Shown in pieces: positions 10,529 to 31,001 of a DNA stretch of 34,639 bases. The notes under the pieces were generated by a model. That model was given only the letters and a program-made list of their open reading frames with translations, made no database searches and was not told the origin of the DNA. The stretch is taken from the IMG/VR virus record IMGVR_UViG_3300028840_004348. One strand, 5' to 3'. Both the position numbers and the translations under genes were made by a program. Source of the DNA: a virus. Each line of letters begins with the position of its first letter. The first letter of the stretch is position 1.

Positions 10529-10615
10529 TGGGAGATGGTGGAATCGAACCACTTGCCTCGTGGAGGAGCGGGTTTACAGCCCACCGCAGGCCCAGCCTGC
10601 CTTAGAGCACCTCCC
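10529..10615 (-). tRNA. tRNA-Tyr (anticodon GTA), class II with long variable arm
   Basis: Folded by eye. The acceptor stem is GGGAGGT/ATCTCCC and the anticodon loop is CUGUAAA. The T-loop is TTCGATT. The gene is 87 nt with discriminator A and no encoded CCA. Confidence 0.6.
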
Positions 10616-10617
10616 GT

Positions 10618-10706
10618 TGCACGGGGTGGGATTCGAACCCACACTGTCTCTTAAGCGTTGCCCTGGGGCCTGAACCCAGCGCCTCTACCAGTTGGGCTAC
10701 CCGTGC
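10618..10706 (-). tRNA. tRNA-Leu (anticodon CAG), class II
   Basis: The acceptor stem is GCACGGG/CCCGTGC and the D-stem is 3 bp with an 11-nt D-loop (CAACTGGTAGA). The anticodon loop is TTCAGGC. The long variable arm is present. The gene lies 2 nt (AC) upstream of the tRNA-Tyr 5' end. Confidence 0.55.
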
Positions 10707-10741
10707 GCTATCTAGATGCTAATTAGCGTCTAATTAGCATC

Positions 10742-10817
10742 TGGTGGACAGGGACGGAGTCGAACCGCCTACACCCGGAACTTCAATCCGGTGCTCTACC
10801 AGTTGAGCTACCTGTCC
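10742..10817 (-). tRNA. tRNA-Phe (anticodon GAA)
   Basis: A 76-nt cloverleaf with acceptor GGACAGG/CCTGTCC and D-stem GCTC/GAGC. The anticodon loop is TTGAAGT and the T-loop is TTCGACT. CCA is encoded. Coordinates were anchored on track ORF 10791. Confidence 0.65.
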
Positions 10818-10819
10818 GT

Positions 10820-10892
10820 TGCGCGTGGAGGGATTCGAACCCCAACATCCGGACCCTCAGTCCGGCGACTCTGCCAGTTGGCCTACACGCGC
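10820..10892 (-). tRNA. tRNA with anticodon GAG (Leu-decoding) but class-I length (73 nt, short variable loop)
   Basis: The acceptor stem is GCGCGTG/CACGCGC with discriminator A73, and the D-arm is Leu-type (3-bp stem, 11-nt loop CAACTGGCAGA). The anticodon stem is CCGGA/TCCGG and the loop is CTGAGGG. The T-loop is TTCGAAT. The isotype needs tRNAscan-SE confirmation. Confidence 0.45.
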
Positions 10893-10959
10893 GTTGTGTT
10901 TCACCTGCTGTCAGCAACCTCCGTTGTCGCTCACTTTCGAACGAATCTGATCAACCAAG

Positions 10960-11033
10960 TGCGACCGCCGGGAGTCGAACCCGGAACATCCTGCTTTTGA
11001 AACAGGCGACTCTGCCAGTTGGCCTACGGTCGC
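10960..11033 (-). tRNA. tRNA with anticodon CAA (Leu-decoding), class-I length (74 nt)
   Basis: The acceptor stem is GCGACCG/CGGTCGC with discriminator A, and the D-arm is identical to the GAG tRNA. The anticodon loop is TTCAAAA and the T-arm is CCGGG-TTCGACT-CCCGG. Coordinates were anchored on track ORF 10997. Confidence 0.45.
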
Positions 11034-11037
11034 TCGA

Positions 11038-11110
11038 TGCGTCCGCCAGGATTCGAACCTGGAACCCCCGGTGTTTAAAGCCGGTGCCTCTGCCGTTGAG
11101 CCACGGACGC
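11038..11110 (-). tRNA. tRNA with anticodon TAA (Leu-decoding), class-I length (73 nt)
   Basis: The acceptor stem is GCGTCCG/CGGACGC with discriminator A, and the D-arm is similar to the other two short Leu-type genes. The anticodon loop is TTTAAAC, with a C-A mismatch closing the stem. The T-arm is CCAGG-TTCGAAT-CCTGG. Confidence 0.4.
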
Positions 11111-11114
11111 TCGG

Positions 11115-11188
11115 CAGGAGAGCCAGGATTCGAACCTGGGTTTGAGGACTTGGAAACCTCCGTGCTGGACCGCTCGCACTACTCTCCC
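11115..11188 (-). tRNA. tRNA-Trp (anticodon CCA)
   Basis: The acceptor stem is GGGAGAG/CTCTCCT with discriminator G and the D-stem is GTGC/GCAC. The anticodon loop is TTCCAAG, with an imperfect anticodon stem. The T-arm is CCAGG-TTCGAAT-CCTGG. Confidence 0.5.
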
Positions 11189-11190
11189 GT

Positions 11191-11263
11191 GGTGACCGAC
11201 GAGACTTGAACTCGCAACGACCGGGGCCACATCCCGGCGCTCTACCAGTTGAGCTACGGCCAC
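11191..11263 (-). tRNA. tRNA-His (anticodon GTG), no encoded G(-1)
   Basis: The acceptor stem is GTGGCCG/CGGTCAC with discriminator C, and the anticodon loop is ATGTGGC. The T-loop is TTCAAGT. The nucleotide 5' of G1 is T, so G-1 is not templated. Confidence 0.55.
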
Positions 11264-11265
11264 AG

Positions 11266-11350
11266 CGGAGGACGCAGGGCTCGAACCTGCACCGGGATGA
11301 ACCGGACGACGCCTTAGCAGGGCGCTGCGATACCATTCTGCCAGTCCTCC
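11266..11350 (-). tRNA. tRNA-Ser (anticodon GCT), class II
   Basis: The acceptor stem is GGAGGAC/GTCCTCC with discriminator G, and the anticodon loop is CTGCTAA. The long variable arm is present. The T-arm is GCAGG-TTCGAGC-CCTGC. Confidence 0.55.
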
Positions 11351-11415
11351 ACATTAAAATTTTCCTCCATTTTCTTTAATAGTTCGGATCCTAATTAAAA
11401 CTTTCTTCAATACTG

Positions 11416-11488
11416 AGTCCCGAGCCGGAATCGAACCGGCGTCTGAGGATTTGCAGTCCCCCGCTTGAACCTGCTCAGCTACCGGGAC
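11416..11488 (-). tRNA. tRNA-Cys (anticodon GCA)
   Basis: The acceptor stem is GTCCCGG/TCGGGAC with discriminator U, which is typical for Cys. The anticodon loop is CTGCAAA and the T-arm is GCCGG-TTCGATT-CCGGC. Coordinates were anchored on track ORF 11465. Confidence 0.55.
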
Positions 11489-11491
11489 AAG

Positions 11492-11563
11492 CAGGGCCGG
11501 GCGGAGTCGAACCGCCGTACTCGGGTCCAAAGCCCGATGCTCTACACGTTGAGCTACGACCCC
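11492..11563 (-). tRNA. tRNA-Gln (anticodon TTG)
   Basis: The acceptor stem is GGGGTCG/CGGCCCT, with two G-U pairs, and the discriminator is G. The anticodon loop is CTTTGGA and the T-arm is GGCGG-TTCGACT-CCGCC. Confidence 0.5.
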
Positions 11564-11565
11564 GG

Positions 11566-11655
11566 AGGAGGGCGAGGGATTCGAACCCCCACGCCGGGAC
11601 AACGCCGACGACCGCGATTTTCGAGACCGCTCCAATACCGTTCTGGCAGCCCTCC
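11566..11655 (-). tRNA. tRNA-Ser (anticodon CGA), class II
   Basis: The acceptor stem is GGAGGGC/GCCCTCC. The anticodon arm, GCGGT-CTCGAAA-ATCGC, matches the canonical Ser(CGA) arm. The long variable arm is present. The discriminator reads U, which is atypical for Ser. Confidence 0.5.
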
Positions 11656-11700
11656 GATTGGTAAATCTTTCCATCACTTAACACTTCTTTACCGTTCGAG

Positions 11701-11787
11701 CGGAAGCGCCTGGACTCGAACCAGGACCACGGGAAACCGTGCTCTCGGCCTTCCAAGCCGGGGCCTTACCGTTGAGGCTACGCTTCC
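11701..11787 (-). tRNA. tRNA-Ser (anticodon GGA), class II
   Basis: The acceptor stem is GGAAGCG/CGCTTCC with discriminator G, and the anticodon loop is TTGGAAG. The long variable arm is present. The T-arm is CCTGG-TTCGAGT-CCAGG. Confidence 0.55.
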
Positions 11788-11800
11788 GAACTGGAAACGA

Positions 11801-11911
11801 TTAGCTTAGATAAAGCAGTGATTGATGCTGGATAAACGAGGAGAGACACCAGAGGCGGGGAGCCTTGGCGGTGGGGGCGATCATCTTTCCGATTCGCTTT
11901 CGACGTTTCAT
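11801..11911 (-). CDS. possible 36-aa basic micro-ORF inside the tRNA array (speculative)
   Basis: ATG at 11911 is preceded by GGAGAGACCG. It encodes MKRRKRIGKMIAPTAKAPRLWCLSSFIQHQSLLYLS within the 138-nt spacer between tRNA-Pro and tRNA-Ser(GGA). It is absent from the ORF track because it is too short. Confidence 0.15.
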   Translation of the reverse strand: MKRRKRIGKMIAPTAKAPRLWCLSSFIQHQSLLYLS

Positions 11912-11925
11912 CGGTCTCTCCTCGG

Positions 11926-11999
11926 TCCGGGCGAGAGGATTTGAACCTCCAACCTCTAGATCCCGAATCTAGCGTGCTACCAGATTGCACTACACCCGG
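11926..11999 (-). tRNA. tRNA-Pro (anticodon CGG)
   Basis: The acceptor stem has the C1-G72 pair characteristic of bacterial Pro, CCGGGTG/CGCCCGG, with discriminator A. The D-stem is GTGC/GCAC and the anticodon arm is CTAGA-TTCGGGA-TCTAG. The T-loop is TTCAAAT. Confidence 0.55.
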
Positions 12000-12104: not shown

Positions 12105-12133
12105 AATATAGAAGAAGCCCTCAAAGAGATCAA
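12105..12133 (-). promoter_or_regulatory. candidate tRNA-operon promoter TTGATC-17-TATATT (the -35 overlaps the GNAT stop codon)
   Basis: Minus strand reads GCTTGATCTCTTTGAGGGCTTCTTCTATATTTGAGA. This is followed by a GC hairpin, CTTCGCCGCGTAGCGGCGCGAAG. The tRNA-Pro 5' end is about 100 nt downstream. Confidence 0.35.
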
Positions 12134-12624
12134 GCAGAAAGTTCAGAGTCGAGCTTTTCCTTCAAGCCGGTGCCGCTCTCCGTGGTCATCCCCCACTGGA
12201 TGTCCTCATAGGGAATCTCGTTCTCGCGCATCAGCTCCTGGATCAACGCGCGGCCTACTCCCTTTCCCTGCGCCTCGGGCTTGACCTCGATCATCTTGAG
12301 ATGCGTCTCGCCGCGCCAGAGAGTGTAGTCCACGTAGCCGAGCCCTTCGCCGGTCTTTGCGTCCTTGGCGACGATCCAGGCGTCCCACTGGTCGCCGAGG
12401 GCATCACCCCCGTGCTCGAAGGCGAGGGCGTCGCCCTGCTGGGCGTTCCGACCCGTTACGAAAGGAAGCAGCCGAAGAAGAAGCATCCACTGAGAGAACG
12501 CGTTCTCCTCTTCGAAGCGTCTTTTCTCCCGCTCGATGGCCCGCTCAGGTTCATCCTCTTCGATCTCGGGCACCTCGTCACCGATGCGACGAAGGGCTTC
12601 CGTGTTCAGTCCGTGGAGCCGCAT
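12130..12624 (-). CDS. GNAT-family N-acetyltransferase
   Basis: Track ORF 12130..12756 trimmed to ATG 12624, which forms a TGATG overlap with the upstream stop and has a GGGAGGAC SD. It carries the acetyl-CoA motif IEVKPEAQGKGVGRALI (the Q/R-x-x-G-x-G/A pattern). The N-terminus begins MRLHGLN. Confidence 0.6.
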   Translation of the reverse strand: MRLHGLNTEALRRIGDEVPEIEEDEPERAIEREKRRFEEENAFSQWMLLLRLLPFVTGRNAQQGDALAFEHGGDALGDQWDAWIVAKDAKTGEGLGYVDYTLWRGETHLKMIEVKPEAQGKGVGRALIQELMRENEIPYEDIQWGMTTESGTGLKEKLDSELSA

Positions 12625-13277
12625 CAGTCCTCCCAGACCGAATCGATGAGGTCGTAGATGAGATCGACCTGCTCGTCGGCGAAGTGCCAGCGGACATCGA
12701 TGTTGTCGTCGGCCCATTTCTTCGGATCGCCGTCTAGCTCCTCGGACATCGCGCACCAGTCGGCCACCATCTCCGCGATGTCGAGGTCGCCCATCCCGGT
12801 ACCGTCGATGACCTCGTCGGGAGCTGCATCCCGGTCGTCCTCGTCGACCACATCGAGCGTCTCCATCTGATGATACTCAGGGTGATGCTTGCTGTTCAGG
12901 ATGTGGTGCTGCGTGGCGACGTTGATCGCGTCCTCCATCCCCCCGGGCAGCTCGCACTCGATGCCCTCATCCTCGCACTTGTAGCGCCAGGTCAGCCAGA
13001 TGTACGGCTCCAGCTCGGGCTCTTCGAACTTGATCTGGTCGTGTTCTTCACCGCGCTCGATCAGGCCGTCGAAACCGTCCCAGGCATCCTCGATCTTCTT
13101 GCAGTACTTCTGCACGCGCTCGATGTGCTTGTTGGTCCGGTCGTAGAAGTGCTGTTCCATCTCGTCGGTGATCTGCTGAGCGACACGCCGAAGGCTGTCA
13201 AGCGCGCCCTGGACAGTCATGCCACTACGCATTCCGACCCGGATGATCGCGTTCCGGTCGAGTCCCCGAAGTCTCAT
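12624..13277 (-). CDS. hypothetical His-rich protein (possible HD-like metal-dependent hydrolase)
   Basis: Track ORF 12624..13334, which opens with TTG, trimmed to ATG 13277, which forms an ATGA overlap. Motifs seen are KHIERV, EEHDQIK (an HDxxK arrangement) and ATQHHILNSKHHPEYH. The N-terminus begins MRLRGLD. Confidence 0.4.
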   Translation of the reverse strand: MRLRGLDRNAIIRVGMRSGMTVQGALDSLRRVAQQITDEMEQHFYDRTNKHIERVQKYCKKIEDAWDGFDGLIERGEEHDQIKFEEPELEPYIWLTWRYKCEDEGIECELPGGMEDAINVATQHHILNSKHHPEYHQMETLDVVDEDDRDAAPDEVIDGTGMGDLDIAEMVADWCAMSEELDGDPKKWADDNIDVRWHFADEQVDLIYDLIDSVWED

Positions 13278-13561
13278 CCCTCTTTCACCGGAGGAAGGTC
13301 CCGCAGGACTTCCCACGCCTCGTTGAAGATCCAAGGAGTCTCATCGTATCGTCCATTCTGCTGCTTGAGTAGCACCACGTAACAGTGATCATCGATGGCG
13401 ATCTGAGCACGACCTCCGTACTCGTCTGCCAGCGTAGCTACGGGCTCGAACTCCGCGCCCTCCGGATCATCGTTGTCCCAGATAGCTCGATCATCGGTCT
13501 CCACTTGCACGTATCTCGCGATACGTCGAAGTGACTCTCGGTTGAGACCGTGGAGTCTCAC
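13274..13561 (-). CDS. hypothetical protein
   Basis: Track ORF with a GTG start that forms a GTGA overlap with the upstream stop. The N-terminus begins MRLHGLN. Confidence 0.45.
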   Translation of the reverse strand: MRLHGLNRESLRRIARYVQVETDDRAIWDNDDPEGAEFEPVATLADEYGGRAQIAIDDHCYVVLLKQQNGRYDETPWIFNEAWEVLRDLPPVKEG

Positions 13562-15523: not shown

Positions 15524-15823
15524 CTACAGAGTCTCATCAACGACGTTGCCCAAGGTATCCAGGGCAATGTCCTTGATGAGTTCCTGAAGCTCTCGGAAAC
15601 GAGGATGAGAAGTGAACCGTTCCTCGGCTCGGGCCAAGGTAATGCCTCCTCTCGGAAGCTTGTTCCAGTCGACGTGGCTGAAGACCGAGGCAGCCTGCGC
15701 GGCAGCTTGCGGAAGCCCCCATTCAAGATCTGTCAAGACATCGTCCCAGTCGACCTCGAATCCTTCGCGCTCGATGCGCTCCTTCTCTTCCTGATAGCCG
15801 CCACCGAACGGATCACTCGACAT
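15524..15823 (-). CDS. hypothetical acidic protein
   Basis: Track ORF with a GGAGGAG SD. Confidence 0.5.
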   Translation of the reverse strand: MSSDPFGGGYQEEKERIEREGFEVDWDDVLTDLEWGLPQAAAQAASVFSHVDWNKLPRGGITLARAEERFTSHPRFRELQELIKDIALDTLGNVVDETL

Positions 15824-16367
15824 CGGGCTCCTCCATCACTTCATGGGGCTCTTCGTCAATGCGATGCATCTCGAACTCGACGCCGGCCTCGTTGCAGACT
15901 TCTTCGAAACCTTCGATCACCTTGTCAGTGTCCTCCCAGATCTCCACCCGTGTCGGCTGATGTTCCTCGATGAGTTGACGGAGCATCTCGGGCTTCCAGA
16001 CTTCTGAGCGAGAGCCCTCCGGGGCGAGCCGGATCTCATCGAAGTCGAGATCTTGTTGATCGAGCAGCTCGTTGATCCGATCTTCGAACTTCTCGAAGCG
16101 ACCAGTCACGAGCACGAACGCCGCGTCAGCTGCTTGCTCCGACTCGTGAGCGTCTCGAAGAACCTTTTGCACCCACCAGTCGGTCGTGGGCTCCTCGGGC
16201 ACCTGAGGCTCCTCCAGGCTCTTCTCGTTGGACCACCATCCTCGCTCGGGCCACCCTTTCGGTTTCTCGGGACTACGGAACAGAGTGCCGTCGAAGTCGT
16301 ACAGATGAAGCACCTTTGCTCCCGCGAGGCGGCGGAGTCCTTGCTTGGTAATGCCGAGAACGATCAT
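15813..16367 (-). CDS. HAD-superfamily phosphatase (T4 Pnkp-phosphatase-like / nucleotidase-like)
   Basis: Track ORF. It carries HAD motif I, LHLYDFDGTLF (the DxDGT signature), and a motif II-like FVLVTGR. It has no SD. Its ATG lies 7 nt after a TAGAAT hexamer, so it may be leaderless. Confidence 0.55.
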   Translation of the reverse strand: MIVLGITKQGLRRLAGAKVLHLYDFDGTLFRSPEKPKGWPERGWWSNEKSLEEPQVPEEPTTDWWVQKVLRDAHESEQAADAAFVLVTGRFEKFEDRINELLDQQDLDFDEIRLAPEGSRSEVWKPEMLRQLIEEHQPTRVEIWEDTDKVIEGFEEVCNEAGVEFEMHRIDEEPHEVMEEPDVE

Positions 16368-19285: not shown

Positions 19286-20011
19286 CTACTTTTTCAGCCG
19301 TCTCGCGATGCGTTCCAACTGGCCGTCCCCGAGACCTTTCTTGTACCGACCTTGGCGGTCGAACTCCAGGTTTTCGTCCTCTTCCTCCTCCAGCCATCCG
19401 AGCGCCTTGAGGGCTTCCCCGATCTGCTCTTCGGAGGGATAGGAGCCGCCGGTATCGGTCCGATAATCCAGCGCATCCTGGTTGTTCTCCCACAGCCAGC
19501 CGAAGACCTTCTCCTCCCAGTCGTCCGGGGCTGTGTCGGAGACCATTGGGGCTTCCATTCGGATGTTCTCCAAGGTCTCCTCGTATTCACGCCGGCTGAC
19601 GTCTTCATCACTCAGTACGGGGTAGTCCATGAGCGCGCCGGCCAGCTCCTCCAGTTTCTGGCCAACATCCGTCAGCTCGCCGCTCGGCTCCAGGACGCGG
19701 ACCGCGTACTCGCCGTTGTCGAGACGAACGAAGTCCTCGCTGGTGGGATCGATGCTGTTCAGCGTCTCGATGACCATCTCCATGTTCGACTCGTCCCGGT
19801 GGGACATCATGTCCTTGTAGCCCTGAATGGTGGCCCACTGGTCGGCCTCGTCCCCTTCGAGACCGAGGTAATGGAAGATCGAGACCGGGCTCGTCTCCGG
19901 CGCGTAGTAGAGGCCGGCATCGCTGAGCAGTCCCCGGAACTCCATGATCTTAGGTTGAAGATCGCCTCGGTAGGTCTGCCGGTCATCGTCTTCCCAAATG
20001 TATCGAGGCAT
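19286..20011 (-). CDS. hypothetical acidic protein
   Basis: Track ORF whose start overlaps the stop of the upstream gene. Confidence 0.5.
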   Translation of the reverse strand: MPRYIWEDDDRQTYRGDLQPKIMEFRGLLSDAGLYYAPETSPVSIFHYLGLEGDEADQWATIQGYKDMMSHRDESNMEMVIETLNSIDPTSEDFVRLDNGEYAVRVLEPSGELTDVGQKLEELAGALMDYPVLSDEDVSRREYEETLENIRMEAPMVSDTAPDDWEEKVFGWLWENNQDALDYRTDTGGSYPSEEQIGEALKALGWLEEEEDENLEFDRQGRYKKGLGDGQLERIARRLKK

Positions 20012-30470: not shown

Positions 30471-31001
30471 CTACACCCTGGAAGTGCGCCGCCCAATCCG
30501 GTAGACGTGCGTGACCGAAATGCCAAACTTGGATGCCAACTCCTTACGAGGAACTCCCTTTTCGAATTGGAGGCGCAGCATAGCAACCTGCTGATCCGTG
30601 AGCTTCGATTGTGGATGATGCTCTCCTCGAAGTCCTGATCCCCTTCCGCGAACAAAGGGATTCAGGTGCGGTTGCGTGCGGGCACCATTACGGTCGCCAG
30701 AGGCGGTGCGCCCCTTTCGATCCCGATCAACGTTGTTATCACGTTGAGTACCCAGAAAAAGATGATCTACACGTACACATTTTGGATTATCGCATTGATG
30801 CAGAACATGAATACCCTTAGGAATCTTCCCGTGTTCCAGCATCCACGCGACCCGATGCGCATAGAGAGGGTGGGAACTTAGCTTCCGAGCTTGAAGCAGC
30901 CCATATCCGTTCCGGGTCACATAGCCCGTCCACTCCCAGCACTTCGAGGTCTTGACTACTTTGCGCCAAAACCGTTCAACAAATTCAACAGGAAACTCCA
31001 T
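30471..31001 (-). CDS. HNH endonuclease with C-terminal HTH (homing-endonuclease-like)
   Basis: Track ORF. It carries the HNH core, CWEWTGY...HRVAWMLEHGKIPKGIHVLHQCDNPKCVRVDHLFLGTQRDN, and a C-terminal HTH, LTDQQVAMLRLQFEKGVPRKELASKFGISVTHVYRI. It has no SD. Its ATG lies 5 nt after TATGTT in a TTGATA-17-TATGTT promoter. Confidence 0.65.
   Translation of the reverse strand: MEFPVEFVERFWRKVVKTSKCWEWTGYVTRNGYGLLQARKLSSHPLYAHRVAWMLEHGKIPKGIHVLHQCDNPKCVRVDHLFLGTQRDNNVDRDRKGRTASGDRNGARTQPHLNPFVRGRGSGLRGEHHPQSKLTDQQVAMLRLQFEKGVPRKELASKFGISVTHVYRIGRRTSRV

What the first reader, a model, noticed from the sequence alone, without database searches (positions are those of the whole stretch)
12598..13561. 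Three adjacent genes begin with the same MRL[HR]GL[ND] N-terminal peptide, encoded by a repeated roughly 25-nt DNA element
The GNAT acetyltransferase opens with MRLHGLNTEALRRIG. The His-rich protein opens with MRLRGLDRNAIIRVG. The 95-aa protein opens with MRLHGLNRESLRRIA. Each start overlaps the preceding stop by 4 nt. The DNA around each start is also similar. By analogy to the capsid-targeting sequences of T4 internal proteins, this could be a shared leader for virion packaging or ejection, or for secretion or proteolytic processing. Alternatively it could mark a recombination junction at the boundaries of horizontally shuffled gene modules.
Basis: seen in the sequence. Interest (0 to 1): 0.6.

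Follow-up and report, generated by a model that had tools for sequence, protein, structure and literature searches.

The report
Shared address tag on phage enzymes
A group of large uncultured phages puts the same roughly 16-residue peptide on the ends of dozens of unrelated enzymes, including anti-restriction and host-modifying types. It looks like an address label that most likely loads them into the virus head for co-injection with the DNA, though this is untested.

Summary
The three shared N-termini are real, but the conserved thing is a peptide, not a DNA element. Identity between copies sits at codon positions 1 and 2; third positions and flanks are at background. The window holds a fourth N-terminal copy on a HAD phosphatase (16367). 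It also holds a probable C-terminal copy on the gene 19286-20011, whose homologues elsewhere carry the tag N-terminally. The DUF5662 gene carries two tags in tandem.

In 1.24 Mb of related metagenomic phage DNA I found 80 distinct tagged ORFs in 52 unrelated sequence clusters. Consensus: MKLKGISDKGLRRIAQ, with M1, G5 and R13 invariant. They mostly form tandem arrays. Cargo includes GNATs, ArdA, ParB-like, Tpt1/ART-like, HAD, DUF5661 and DUF5662 proteins. A 197-kb relative and 596 Gb of cellular genomes have no real copies.

In 10 of 20 loci with a homologous major head protein gene, the arrays lie 1.8-10 kb downstream of that gene, on the same strand, and never upstream. In the window phage's lineage the array lies elsewhere, about 100 kb from that gene in the closest long relative.

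Best reading: a modular docking tag, most likely a capsid-targeting signal analogous to the T4 CTS but unrelated in sequence. Packaging itself is untested.

The parts
12577..12624 (-). N-terminal tag of the GNAT gene (MRLHGLNTEALRRIGD). ATG at 12624 overlaps the upstream stop by 1 nt (TGATG).
12130..12624 (-). Cargo 1: GNAT acetyltransferase, 164 aa. The Pfam domain covers residues 78-135, outside the tag.
13230..13277 (-). Outer N-terminal tag of the DUF5662 gene (MRLRGLDRNAIIRVGM), with an ATGA overlap.
13176..13220 (-). Inner, partly decayed second tag of the same gene (residues 20-34, MTVQGALDSLRRVAQ). It sits exactly where orthologues carry their only tag.
12624..13277 (-). Cargo 2: DUF5662 protein, 217 aa. 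The domain covers residues 40-194. In the AF2 model the tag region is low-confidence, with a short helix at 8-17.
13514..13561 (-). N-terminal tag of the 95-aa gene (start codon GTG, read as Met: MRLHGLNRESLRRIAR), with a GTGA overlap.
13274..13561 (-). Cargo 3: 95-aa protein with no family match.
16320..16367 (-). It is the only window copy scored by a profile built solely from other phages (13.7 bits, E 0.002).
15813..16367 (-). Cargo 4: HAD-family phosphatase (HAD_SAK_1, residues 37-162), 184 aa.
19289..19345 (-). Probable C-terminal copy of the tag (YKKGLGDGQLERIARRLKK, then stop). It is in register with the N-terminal consensus and conserved in a 70%-identical homologue. AF2 predicts a flexible tail ending in a helix.
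19286..20011 (-). Cargo 5: 241-aa protein of a large uncharacterised family. Homologues in other phages carry the tag at the N-terminus instead.

Best explanation
Shown: the repeat is a modular, protein-level address tag of 16-18 residues. Its consensus is M-[KR]-L-x-G-[IL]-x-x-x-[GA]-[LFMI]-x-R-[ILV]-[AG]. It consists of a short extended stretch followed by an amphipathic helix with an invariant Arg. A clade of large (about 130-190 kb) uncultured tailed phages has fused it to the termini of many unrelated proteins. It is usually N-terminal, occasionally C-terminal or between domains.

Inferred: the tag docks each cargo onto one conserved phage component. That component is most likely part of the assembling head (scaffold/core or the inner face of the major head protein). 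An exchangeable arsenal of anti-restriction and host-modifying enzymes would then be packaged and injected with the DNA, as with the capsid-targeting sequence of T4 internal proteins.

Because every cassette starts with the same coding stretch, recombination between tags can also swap cargo genes. I regard that as a consequence, not the selected function.
For: Peptide-level selection. In seven genomes, identity between tag copies is 0.61-0.93 at codon positions 1+2, 0.34-0.60 at position 3 and 0.23-0.40 in the flanks. In locus L042, three identical peptides differ by 18 synonymous and 0 nonsynonymous codons.

Modularity. I found 80 distinct tagged ORFs in 33 loci, forming 52 BLAST clusters once the first 20 residues are removed (earlier tally). 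Pfam domains always start after the tag. DUF5662 relatives at 51-82% identity keep the tag, while several others at comparable or lower identity (49-53%), including CPR/Nanoarchaeota ones, start directly with the domain.

Independence of terminus. One cargo family has the tag N-terminally in L047, L033, P0124, P0126 and P0132. It has the tag C-terminally in the window and in P0121, and after the domain in P0123. AF2 gives low-confidence coil plus helix for both the N-terminal tag and the C-terminal one.

Specificity. There are no copies in the 197-kb relative Rctr197k or in 15 other viral loci. A scan of 596 Gb of cellular genomes gave only 2 isolated chance matches.

Cargo type. It includes ArdA antirestriction (E 5.8e-34), two different GNATs, ParB_N, Tpt1/KptA-like (ART-fold) proteins, an HExxH protein, HAD, DUF5661 and DUF5662. 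These are the classes known or proposed to be virion-delivered (PMC5512222; PMC3012670).

Head linkage. In L047 the array lies 3 kb downstream of a major head protein gene (phrog_2522, 3.6e-57) and a head maturation protease gene (phrog_18299, 2.3e-28). Of 20 loci with a homologous head protein gene and at least 5 kb of downstream sequence, 10 carry tags. All 36 tags lie 1.8-10 kb downstream on the same strand, and none lies in the 10 kb upstream. Tagged genes are interleaved with conserved virion genes.

Conservation across phages with GC3 from about 0.3 to 0.8 argues for a phage-encoded partner rather than a host-specific one.
Against: There is no proteomic or structural evidence that any tagged protein is in a virion.

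In the window phage itself the tagged genes lie among tRNA, topoisomerase, methylase and helicase genes. In its 192-kb relative the array is about 100 kb from the head protein gene. Late co-expression therefore cannot be assumed there.

No conserved protease site follows the tag: position 16 is Q in 59% of copies, but D, M, R or G in the window.

Rctr197k shares the head protein (59% identity) and the protease yet has no tags. The shared head genes alone therefore do not predict the tag.

The C-terminal copy is convincing by eye and by conservation but does not reach a significant profile score.

The window's three original leaders are a divergent subtype that a profile built only from other phages does not score. 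The link rests on the reciprocal search, on orthologues and on intermediate sequences.
Confidence: 0.5

Rival explanations
1. The tag docks the enzymes onto some other shared partner rather than the head. Candidates are a phage scaffold that assembles them into a multi-enzyme complex (a non-covalent version of the 'Swiss-army-knife' RNA-repair or polyvalent proteins), an intracellular compartment, or a universal host machine such as the ribosome, RNA polymerase or nucleoid.
For: All the evidence for a modular protein-level tag applies equally. In the window phage the tagged genes sit beside a 14-tRNA cluster, a HAD_SAK_1 phosphatase, an R2K ATP-grasp gene and DNA-metabolism genes, not head genes. 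The spacing G-h-x4-h-x-R-h-A resembles the turn and recognition helix of a helix-turn-helix motif. A genuine HTH in the window matches the same loose pattern.
Against: In half of the related head-gene loci with enough downstream sequence, the arrays sit inside the head-tail module, always downstream of the head protein gene. The cargo (ArdA, GNAT, ParB-like, ART-like) has no obvious common pathway. No candidate hub gene co-occurs in the sequence available.
Confidence: 0.25
2. The tag is a processing or degradation signal. A phage or host protease recognises it, to time the activity or removal of early proteins or to activate them by cleavage.
For: It is a terminal, flexible, conserved peptide with basic residues. 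A T4-type head maturation protease is encoded near the arrays in L047. Some copies end in I-A-E, which resembles the T4 gp21 site (L/I)-x-E (from memory).
Against: The residue after the tag is not conserved, and in the window it is D, M, R or G. The same motif occurs at a C-terminus and between domains, unlike known N- or C-degrons, which differ in sequence. Conservation across phages of very different base composition is awkward for a host-protease signal.
Confidence: 0.1
3. The conserved stretch is primarily a DNA-level recombination site that marks cassette boundaries and drives shuffling of accessory genes. The peptide is a by-product.
For: Close relatives (DUF5662 82% identical) carry different neighbouring cargo genes. 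The DUF5662 gene has a new tag grafted upstream of an old one. In the 192-kb relative, four copies are nearly identical at the DNA level.
Against: Third codon positions are far less conserved than positions 1 and 2, and are at background in the window. Differences between identical peptides are all synonymous. Upstream DNA is not conserved. The motif also occurs at a 3' end. The peptide is conserved between genomes with GC3 of 0.3 and 0.8.
Confidence: 0.08
4. The conserved stretch is an RNA element of the translation-initiation region, for example a site for a translational repressor or for re-initiation at overlapping stop/start codons.
For: Most copies begin exactly at a start codon, often overlapping the previous stop.
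Against: Synonymous sites drift freely. The fourth copy in the window follows a 40-nt gap. The motif also occurs at the 3' end of a gene and inside an ORF.
Confidence: 0.03

Closest known systems
Capsid-targeting sequence (CTS) of the T4 internal proteins IPI, IPII and IPIII
   Same: A short N-terminal peptide is the only thing shared by a diverse, fast-changing set of phage proteins that act against host defences. It suffices to load foreign proteins into the scaffolding core (PMC3012670). The genes are exchangeable cassettes.
   Different: There is no sequence similarity to the T4 CTS (MKTYQEFIAE, from memory). Here the tag is longer and can also be C-terminal. It sits on full-size enzymes in arrays of up to 12 genes. 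It has no consistent (L/I)-x-E cleavage site. Packaging has not been shown.
Encapsulin targeting (cargo-loading) peptides
   Same: Short terminal peptides, usually at one end but sometimes at the other, address unrelated enzymes to the inner face of an HK97-fold shell. The family-1 consensus SDGSLGIGSLKRS (PMC8346489) is likewise Gly/hydrophobic followed by a dibasic pair. The cargo genes lie next to the shell gene, as the arrays do here in half of the head-gene loci with enough downstream sequence.
   Different: The sequence register differs (GI-x3-G-LRR-IA against GIGSLKR). The shell here is a real phage head that also packages DNA. No binding data exist.
Polyvalent proteins of phages and conjugative elements, and the phage P1 Dar system
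   Same: The effector repertoire is the same (GNAT, ART, ParB-like, ArdA, metallopeptidase). These are proposed or shown to travel with the DNA into the new host (PMC5512222).
   Different: In those systems the domains are fused into one giant polypeptide or depend on ordered assembly. Here each domain is a separate small protein with a common tag.
Encapsulation peptides of bacterial microcompartments
   Same: An N-terminal amphipathic helix plus linker sits on several different enzymes encoded side by side (from memory).
   Different: No microcompartment shell genes were seen in any locus I examined. The context here is a tailed phage.

Membership tests
T4-type capsid-targeting sequence | A short peptide shared by otherwise unrelated proteins of one phage, at their N-terminus | tested here: met
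   Four N-terminal copies in the window. 80 tagged ORFs in 52 clusters across related phages.
T4-type capsid-targeting sequence | Sequence similarity to the T4 CTS | tested here: not met
   The consensus MKLKGISDKGLRRIAQ has no meaningful similarity to MKTYQEFIAE (from memory). A tblastn search with the consensus found nothing in 50,697 deposited phage genomes.
T4-type capsid-targeting sequence | The tag is followed by a prohead-protease site and removed during maturation | tested here: inconclusive
   No conserved residue follows position 16. A head maturation protease gene exists in the related locus L047. Cleavage itself cannot be tested here.
T4-type capsid-targeting sequence | Tagged proteins are present inside proheads and virions | not testable with these tools
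   This needs virion proteomics. The only indirect support is that arrays lie downstream of the head protein gene in 10 of 20 loci.
Encapsulin cargo-loading peptide | Match to the family-1 consensus SDGSLGIGSLKRS | tested here: not met
   By inspection against the consensus quoted in PMC8346489, the composition is similar but the spacing differs.
Encapsulin cargo-loading peptide | A terminal peptide that works at either end, with the cargo encoded beside an HK97-fold shell gene | tested here: inconclusive
   N-terminal, C-terminal and internal positions occur within one cargo family. Arrays lie beside the major head protein gene (phrog_2522) in some phages, but not in the window phage's lineage.
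Polyvalent proteins | Many effector domains fused in a single polypeptide | tested here: not met
   Most tagged proteins are 70-450 aa with one recognisable domain. Only the domain repertoire overlaps.
Helix-turn-helix DNA-binding motif | Two helices flanking the turn, about 20 residues, within a folded domain | tested here: not met
   Only 4 residues precede the Gly. AF2 predicts coil plus one helix at low confidence. No Pfam HTH family matched any tagged protein.
Interspersed DNA repeat or recombination site | Nucleotide conservation independent of coding | tested here: not met
   Third positions and flanks are at background in the window. The repeat finder result is no better than chance families.

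The most novel reading that the evidence does not exclude
A whole clade of large environmental phages may use one universal cargo-loading peptide, working at either protein terminus, to fill the head with an exchangeable arsenal of anti-defence and host-modifying enzymes that are injected with the genome. This would be encapsulin-style cargo loading operating in a true virus. The tag would then be a sequence-only way to read out the 'injected proteome' of uncultured phages.
Probability: 0.4. Interest if true: 0.85.

Novelty: new variant of a known kind. Interest (0 to 1): 0.72.

Why it matters
If the tag is a packaging signal, three things follow.

First, it marks dozens of proteins of unknown function in uncultured phages as candidates for delivery with the DNA. 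Such proteins would act in the first seconds of infection, which is where anti-restriction and other counter-defence factors are expected. Tagged ArdA, GNAT, ParB-like and Tpt1-like proteins fit that picture.

Second, it would be a general capsid-targeting system outside the T4 group, found purely from sequence.

Third, a 16-residue tag that tolerates many cargoes and either terminus would be a practical handle for loading proteins into phage particles.

Even if the partner is not the head, one peptide conserved on at least 52 unrelated protein clusters implies an undescribed hub interaction in these phages.

Tried and rejected
- Searching the 5.8-billion-protein index with the tag alone failed. 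The padded alignment retrieved only 2 candidates because of the word index, and one search was lost.
- A back-translated pattern for the window's own subtype (MRLHGLN..) found nothing in viral contigs.
- tblastn with the consensus tag against deposited phage genomes found nothing. No cultured phage with virion proteomics could therefore be used.
- blastn of the region against deposited phages found nothing.
- A profile built only from other phages scores only the HAD copy in the window. I therefore checked the link in the reverse direction and through orthologues.
- The core-only profile does not score the C-terminal copy. That claim rests on register, homologues and a loose-pattern background count.
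- Foldseek of the DUF5662 model against the PDB gave no significant match.
- PDB sequence searches with two conserved neighbouring proteins gave nothing.
- Pfam on large multi-domain relatives of the 241-aa protein gave nothing useful, so I do not call them polyvalent proteins.
- Rctr197k genes at the position corresponding to the arrays are mostly membrane or signal-peptide-like proteins, and they have no tag of their own.
- I considered several resemblances from memory and dropped them for lack of a match: the ParB N-terminal ParA-activating peptide, ClpX N-motifs, the Prp-cleaved L27-like leader of staphylococcal phage 80alpha head proteins, and Sec/Tat/lipoprotein signals.
Full report
**1. 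The observation**

All genes in this part of the window are on the minus strand.
- GNAT, 12130-12624: MRLHGLNTEALRRIG
- DUF5662, 12624-13277: MRLRGLDRNAIIRVG
- 95-aa protein, 13274-13561: MRLHGLNRESLRRIA, with a GTG start

The stop/start overlap is ATGA for the DUF5662 gene and GTGA for the 95-aa gene. For the GNAT gene it is TGATG, a 1-nt overlap. A public gene call of the identical DNA started the 95-aa gene 17 codons later and so lost the leader.

A profile of the leaders scanned over all six frames of the window gives 23-27 bits at these starts. The next best place anywhere scores 5.2 bits.

The same scan and a simple pattern search revealed a fourth copy. The HAD-family phosphatase gene 15813-16367 starts MIVLGITKQGLRRLAG. 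It follows a 40-nt intergenic gap rather than an overlap.

**2. Peptide, not DNA**

Aligned at the DNA level, the copies differ at most synonymous sites. Between the four window copies, identity is:
- 0.61 at codon positions 1+2
- 0.34 at position 3
- 0.32 in the 30 nt upstream
- 0.28 in the 48 nt downstream

The repeat finder recovers only the GNAT/95-aa pair (42 nt, 71%). That is indistinguishable from many chance families in the same 4.5 kb.

The same asymmetry holds in six related genomes. In locus L042, three copies encode identical peptides yet differ at 18 codons, all synonymously. The conserved object is therefore a peptide under purifying selection. The 'repeated 25-nt DNA element' is only its shadow.

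**3. How widespread the tag is**

The window matches nothing in deposited phage genomes at the DNA level. It is identical to metagenome contigs of up to 188.5 kb.

DUF5662 homologues at 51-82% identity nearly all start with the same kind of leader, for example MKLHGLTRNAIIRVG, MKLHGIPDSGLRRIAQ and MKLKGISNPGLRRLA. Several other homologues at comparable or lower identity (49-53%) start directly with the domain, including ones annotated from CPR bacteria and Nanoarchaeota.

Fetching the contigs of those close relatives showed that the leader is not specific to DUF5662. In a 192-kb phage, 9 of 11 consecutive genes begin MKLQGIPDSGLRRIAQ or a variant.

A strict back-translated DNA pattern found:
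- 5 stretches in viral contigs
- 24 stretches in metagenome contigs, many with several copies
- 2 isolated low-scoring matches in 596 Gb of cellular genomes, about the number expected by chance

After removing the first 20 residues they fall into 52 BLAST clusters (earlier tally). Arrays reach 12 genes (L046/L068).

Negative controls have no hit above 7.3 bits. These are the 197-kb Virus Rctr197k, which shares the head genes, and 15 other viral loci encoding DUF5662.

**4. Anatomy of the tag**

Over 54 distinct copies:
- M1, G5 and R13 are invariant
- K/R2 96%, L3 91%, I6 94%
- position 7 is mostly S, P or T
- D8 63%, G10 87%
- position 11 is always hydrophobic (L, F, M, I or V)
- I/L/V14 100%, A15 85%, Q16 59%
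- V18 33%, and no conservation after that

The window's three original copies belong to a divergent subtype (G-L at positions 5-6, A/S at 10, often G at 15). The closest relative shares this subtype (MKLRGLGTDAIRKLG, MKLRGLSEAAVSRIG).

A profile built only from other phages scores the HAD copy (13.7 bits, E 0.002) but not those three. I therefore tested the link in the other direction. A profile of six subtype sequences, searched over 701 kb of other loci, gives 53 hits of at least 6 bits. Of these, 40 start at a start codon with model position 1, and the top 13 distinct hits are all N-terminal tags. Orthologous DUF5662 proteins carry either subtype at the same position, and intermediates such as MRLHGIPAAGLRRIAQ exist.

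AlphaFold2 on the DUF5662 protein gives:
- a confident domain (pLDDT above 90 from residue 40)
- a low-confidence N-terminus (pLDDT 48-59)
- coil at residues 1-7 and a helix at 8-17, not packed on the domain

**5. The tag is position-independent and can be stacked**

The window gene 19286-20011 (241 aa) is homologous (E 4e-25) to tagged proteins of L047 and L033. It has no N-terminal tag. Instead it has a 28-residue C-terminal extension ending YKKGLGDGQLERIARRLKK. This extension is in register with the consensus at G5, D8, L11, R13, I14 and A15.

Homologues from the 1.84-billion-protein library show all arrangements:
- P0121 (70% identical) keeps the C-terminal motif (YKKGLGSSQVERIATRLKS)
- P0124, P0126 and P0132 have it at the N-terminus
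- P0123 has it after the domain and before a second region
- many distant members have none

The profile does not score the C-terminal copy, so I call it probable rather than proven. However, a loose pattern matched 125 times in six-frame translations of about 790 kb of session sequence. Nearly all of those matches are N-terminal tags, and only a handful are background, so a background match within 12 residues of this particular stop is unlikely. AF2 again predicts a flexible tail (pLDDT 60-69) ending in a helix at residues 229-240.

Separately, anchoring DUF5662 orthologues on the domain start shows a second tag in the window protein. Residues 20-34 (MTVQGALDSLRRVAQ) sit where the orthologues have their only tag. 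The window protein therefore carries an outer tag grafted in front of an older, decaying one.

**6. What the cargo is**

In the window:
- GNAT
- DUF5662
- a 95-aa protein with no match
- HAD_SAK_1
- the 241-aa family

In relatives:
- ArdA antirestriction protein (E 5.8e-34) and a second, unrelated GNAT
- ParB_N proteins
- DUF5661
- a protein with an HExxH motif (sequence)
- a family with a conserved LYH[VA]T...EGL motif

For that last family, the best PDB matches with a profile are all RNA 2'-phosphotransferases (Tpt1/KptA). These matches are weak (E 0.013-0.22), so the assignment is tentative.

Most other cargo has no match. GNAT, ART-fold, ParB-like, ArdA and metallopeptidase domains are the repertoire described for 'polyvalent proteins'. 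Those proteins are proposed to enter the host with the DNA, and the same repertoire includes T4 Alt and the P1 Dar proteins (PMC5512222).

Cargo content turns over quickly. In a relative whose DUF5662 is 82% identical, the upstream neighbours are a different 92-aa protein and a ParB_N protein, both tagged. The GNAT gene is absent there.

**7. Genomic context**

The window itself is an early or DNA-metabolism type of region:
- 14 tRNA genes at 10529-11999
- an R2K ATP-grasp gene and an SNF2 helicase
- a topoisomerase, a phosphohydrolase and a DNA methyltransferase

In other members of the clade the arrays lie inside the structural module. In L047 the order is:
- head maturation protease (phrog_18299, 2.3e-28)
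- a 677-aa protein
- two paralogues
- major head protein (phrog_2522, 3.6e-57)
- a homing-type endonuclease
- the tagged array

This module is collinear with kb 55-78 of Rctr197k. Tagged genes are interleaved between conserved virion genes, including phrog_985 structural proteins.

As a systematic test I used the L047 head protein to fetch 31 loci (59-100% identical). Of the 20 with at least 5 kb downstream, 10 carry tags. All 36 tags lie 1.8-10 kb downstream of the head gene on the same strand, and none lies in the upstream 10 kb.

The 192-kb relative of the window phage has the same head protein (69% identity) but no tags beside it. Its array lies about 100 kb away. The window-type phages therefore belong to the same clade but have the array elsewhere in the genome.

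**8. Interpretation**

Shown:
- a 16-18-residue peptide is under purifying selection
- it is modular, terminal and flexible
- it is restricted to one clade of large tailed phages
- it is attached to at least 52 unrelated protein clusters, which are enriched in effector-type enzymes

Inferred: it docks them onto one conserved partner. I favour a component of the assembling head, so that the cargo is packaged and co-injected (confidence about 0.5). The reasons are:
- the cargo type
- the head-adjacent arrays in half of the loci with enough downstream sequence
- conservation of the tag across phages with GC3 from about 0.3 to 0.8, which points to a phage-encoded receptor
- the close functional parallel with the T4 CTS; in T4 a diverse set of defence-countering internal proteins shares only that sequence, and it can carry GFP into the head (PMC3012670)

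The occurrence at either terminus recalls encapsulin targeting peptides, which bind the inner face of an HK97-fold shell (PMC8346489).

Points against are:
- the location of the genes in the window phage
- the lack of a cleavage motif
- the tag-less relative Rctr197k
- the absence of any proteomic evidence

Rivals:
- Docking to a different hub (0.25) cannot be excluded.
- A degradation or processing signal (0.1) fits poorly with the variable residue after the tag and with the C-terminal and internal copies.
- A DNA recombination site as the primary function (0.08) is contradicted by the codon-position data.
- An RNA initiation element (0.03) is contradicted by the same data.

Recombination between tags is, however, a plausible by-product. 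It would explain the cassette turnover and the stacked tag.

**9. Novelty**

I found no description of this tag. Full-text literature searches returned only T4, P1, encapsulin and polyvalent-protein work. The consensus matches no deposited phage genome.

In kind, it is a new variant of a known principle: terminal addressing peptides such as the T4 CTS and encapsulin targeting peptides. It has an unrelated sequence and a much larger, enzyme-rich cargo set. It is not a member of either family by sequence.

Noticed in passing
window 10529-11999 (-): A cluster of 14 tRNA genes (Tyr, Leu x4, Phe, Trp, His, Ser x3, Cys, Gln, Pro) lies immediately downstream of the tagged GNAT gene. In the closest relative the tRNAs follow the DUF5662 gene directly. 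Rctr197k also has large tRNA clusters next to a HAD gene.
   Followed up: partly
window 13274-13561 (-); L001 9768-10004: The public gene call for this ORF uses an internal GTG (78 aa) and drops the tag. Automated annotation may systematically miss tags that start with GTG in overlapping genes.
   Followed up: partly
L061 1749-2306 (same phage, about 8 kb beyond the right end of the window): A further tagged gene (MIKPPGVPDSALSRIAG, 185 aa) lies between a 556-aa and a 1278-aa ORF. The N-terminus of the 556-aa protein resembles that of P0122 and P0125, which carry the 241-aa-family domain at their C-terminus.
   Followed up: partly
window 19286-20011 (-) and homologues P0131, P0142, P0155, P0165: The 241-aa cargo family is large (534 representatives at E<=0.001). 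It also occurs inside giant proteins of 1,000-2,400 residues, once in 19 matched stretches. Pfam recognises nothing in those tested. The start of the domain (R-x-[IL]-S-D-A-G-L-Y-Y) itself faintly resembles the tag.
   Followed up: partly
window 30471-31001 (-): An HNH-type endonuclease ORF (HNH_3 in the public annotation of L061) lies between the topoisomerase gene and the 401-aa gene. Its C-terminus is a typical helix-turn-helix (KFGISVTHVYRIGRR) that matches the loose tag pattern by chance.
   Followed up: no
L020 3281-4327; L060 3960-6158: TnpB/Cas12f-like ORFs (Cas12f1-like_TNB) occur in two phages of this group, one of them just beyond the left end of the window.
   Followed up: no
L045/L046 (tagged ORF starting MKLGGITNQGIRRISRR): Directly after the tag, this cargo has five tandem copies of the hexapeptide DPATGV.
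   Followed up: no
L046 8032-9306 and 9987-10721 (-): Two paralogues start with a further tag variant, MKKGLS[NS]LALGRIAAF, followed by a DUF5661 domain. DUF5661 and DUF5662 thus both occur as cargo in the same arrays.
   Followed up: partly
window 12624-13277 (-) / model m66b1806490af: DUF5662 has invariant H51, H79-D80, H125, H131-H132, D150 and D173, a pattern reminiscent of HD-type metal-dependent phosphohydrolases. The confident AF2 model has no significant Foldseek match in the PDB.
   Followed up: partly
L053 10803-12317 and 19281-19535 (Virus Rctr197k): The tag-less relative Rctr197k is annotated with two CRISPR arrays and transposase-like genes.
   Followed up: no
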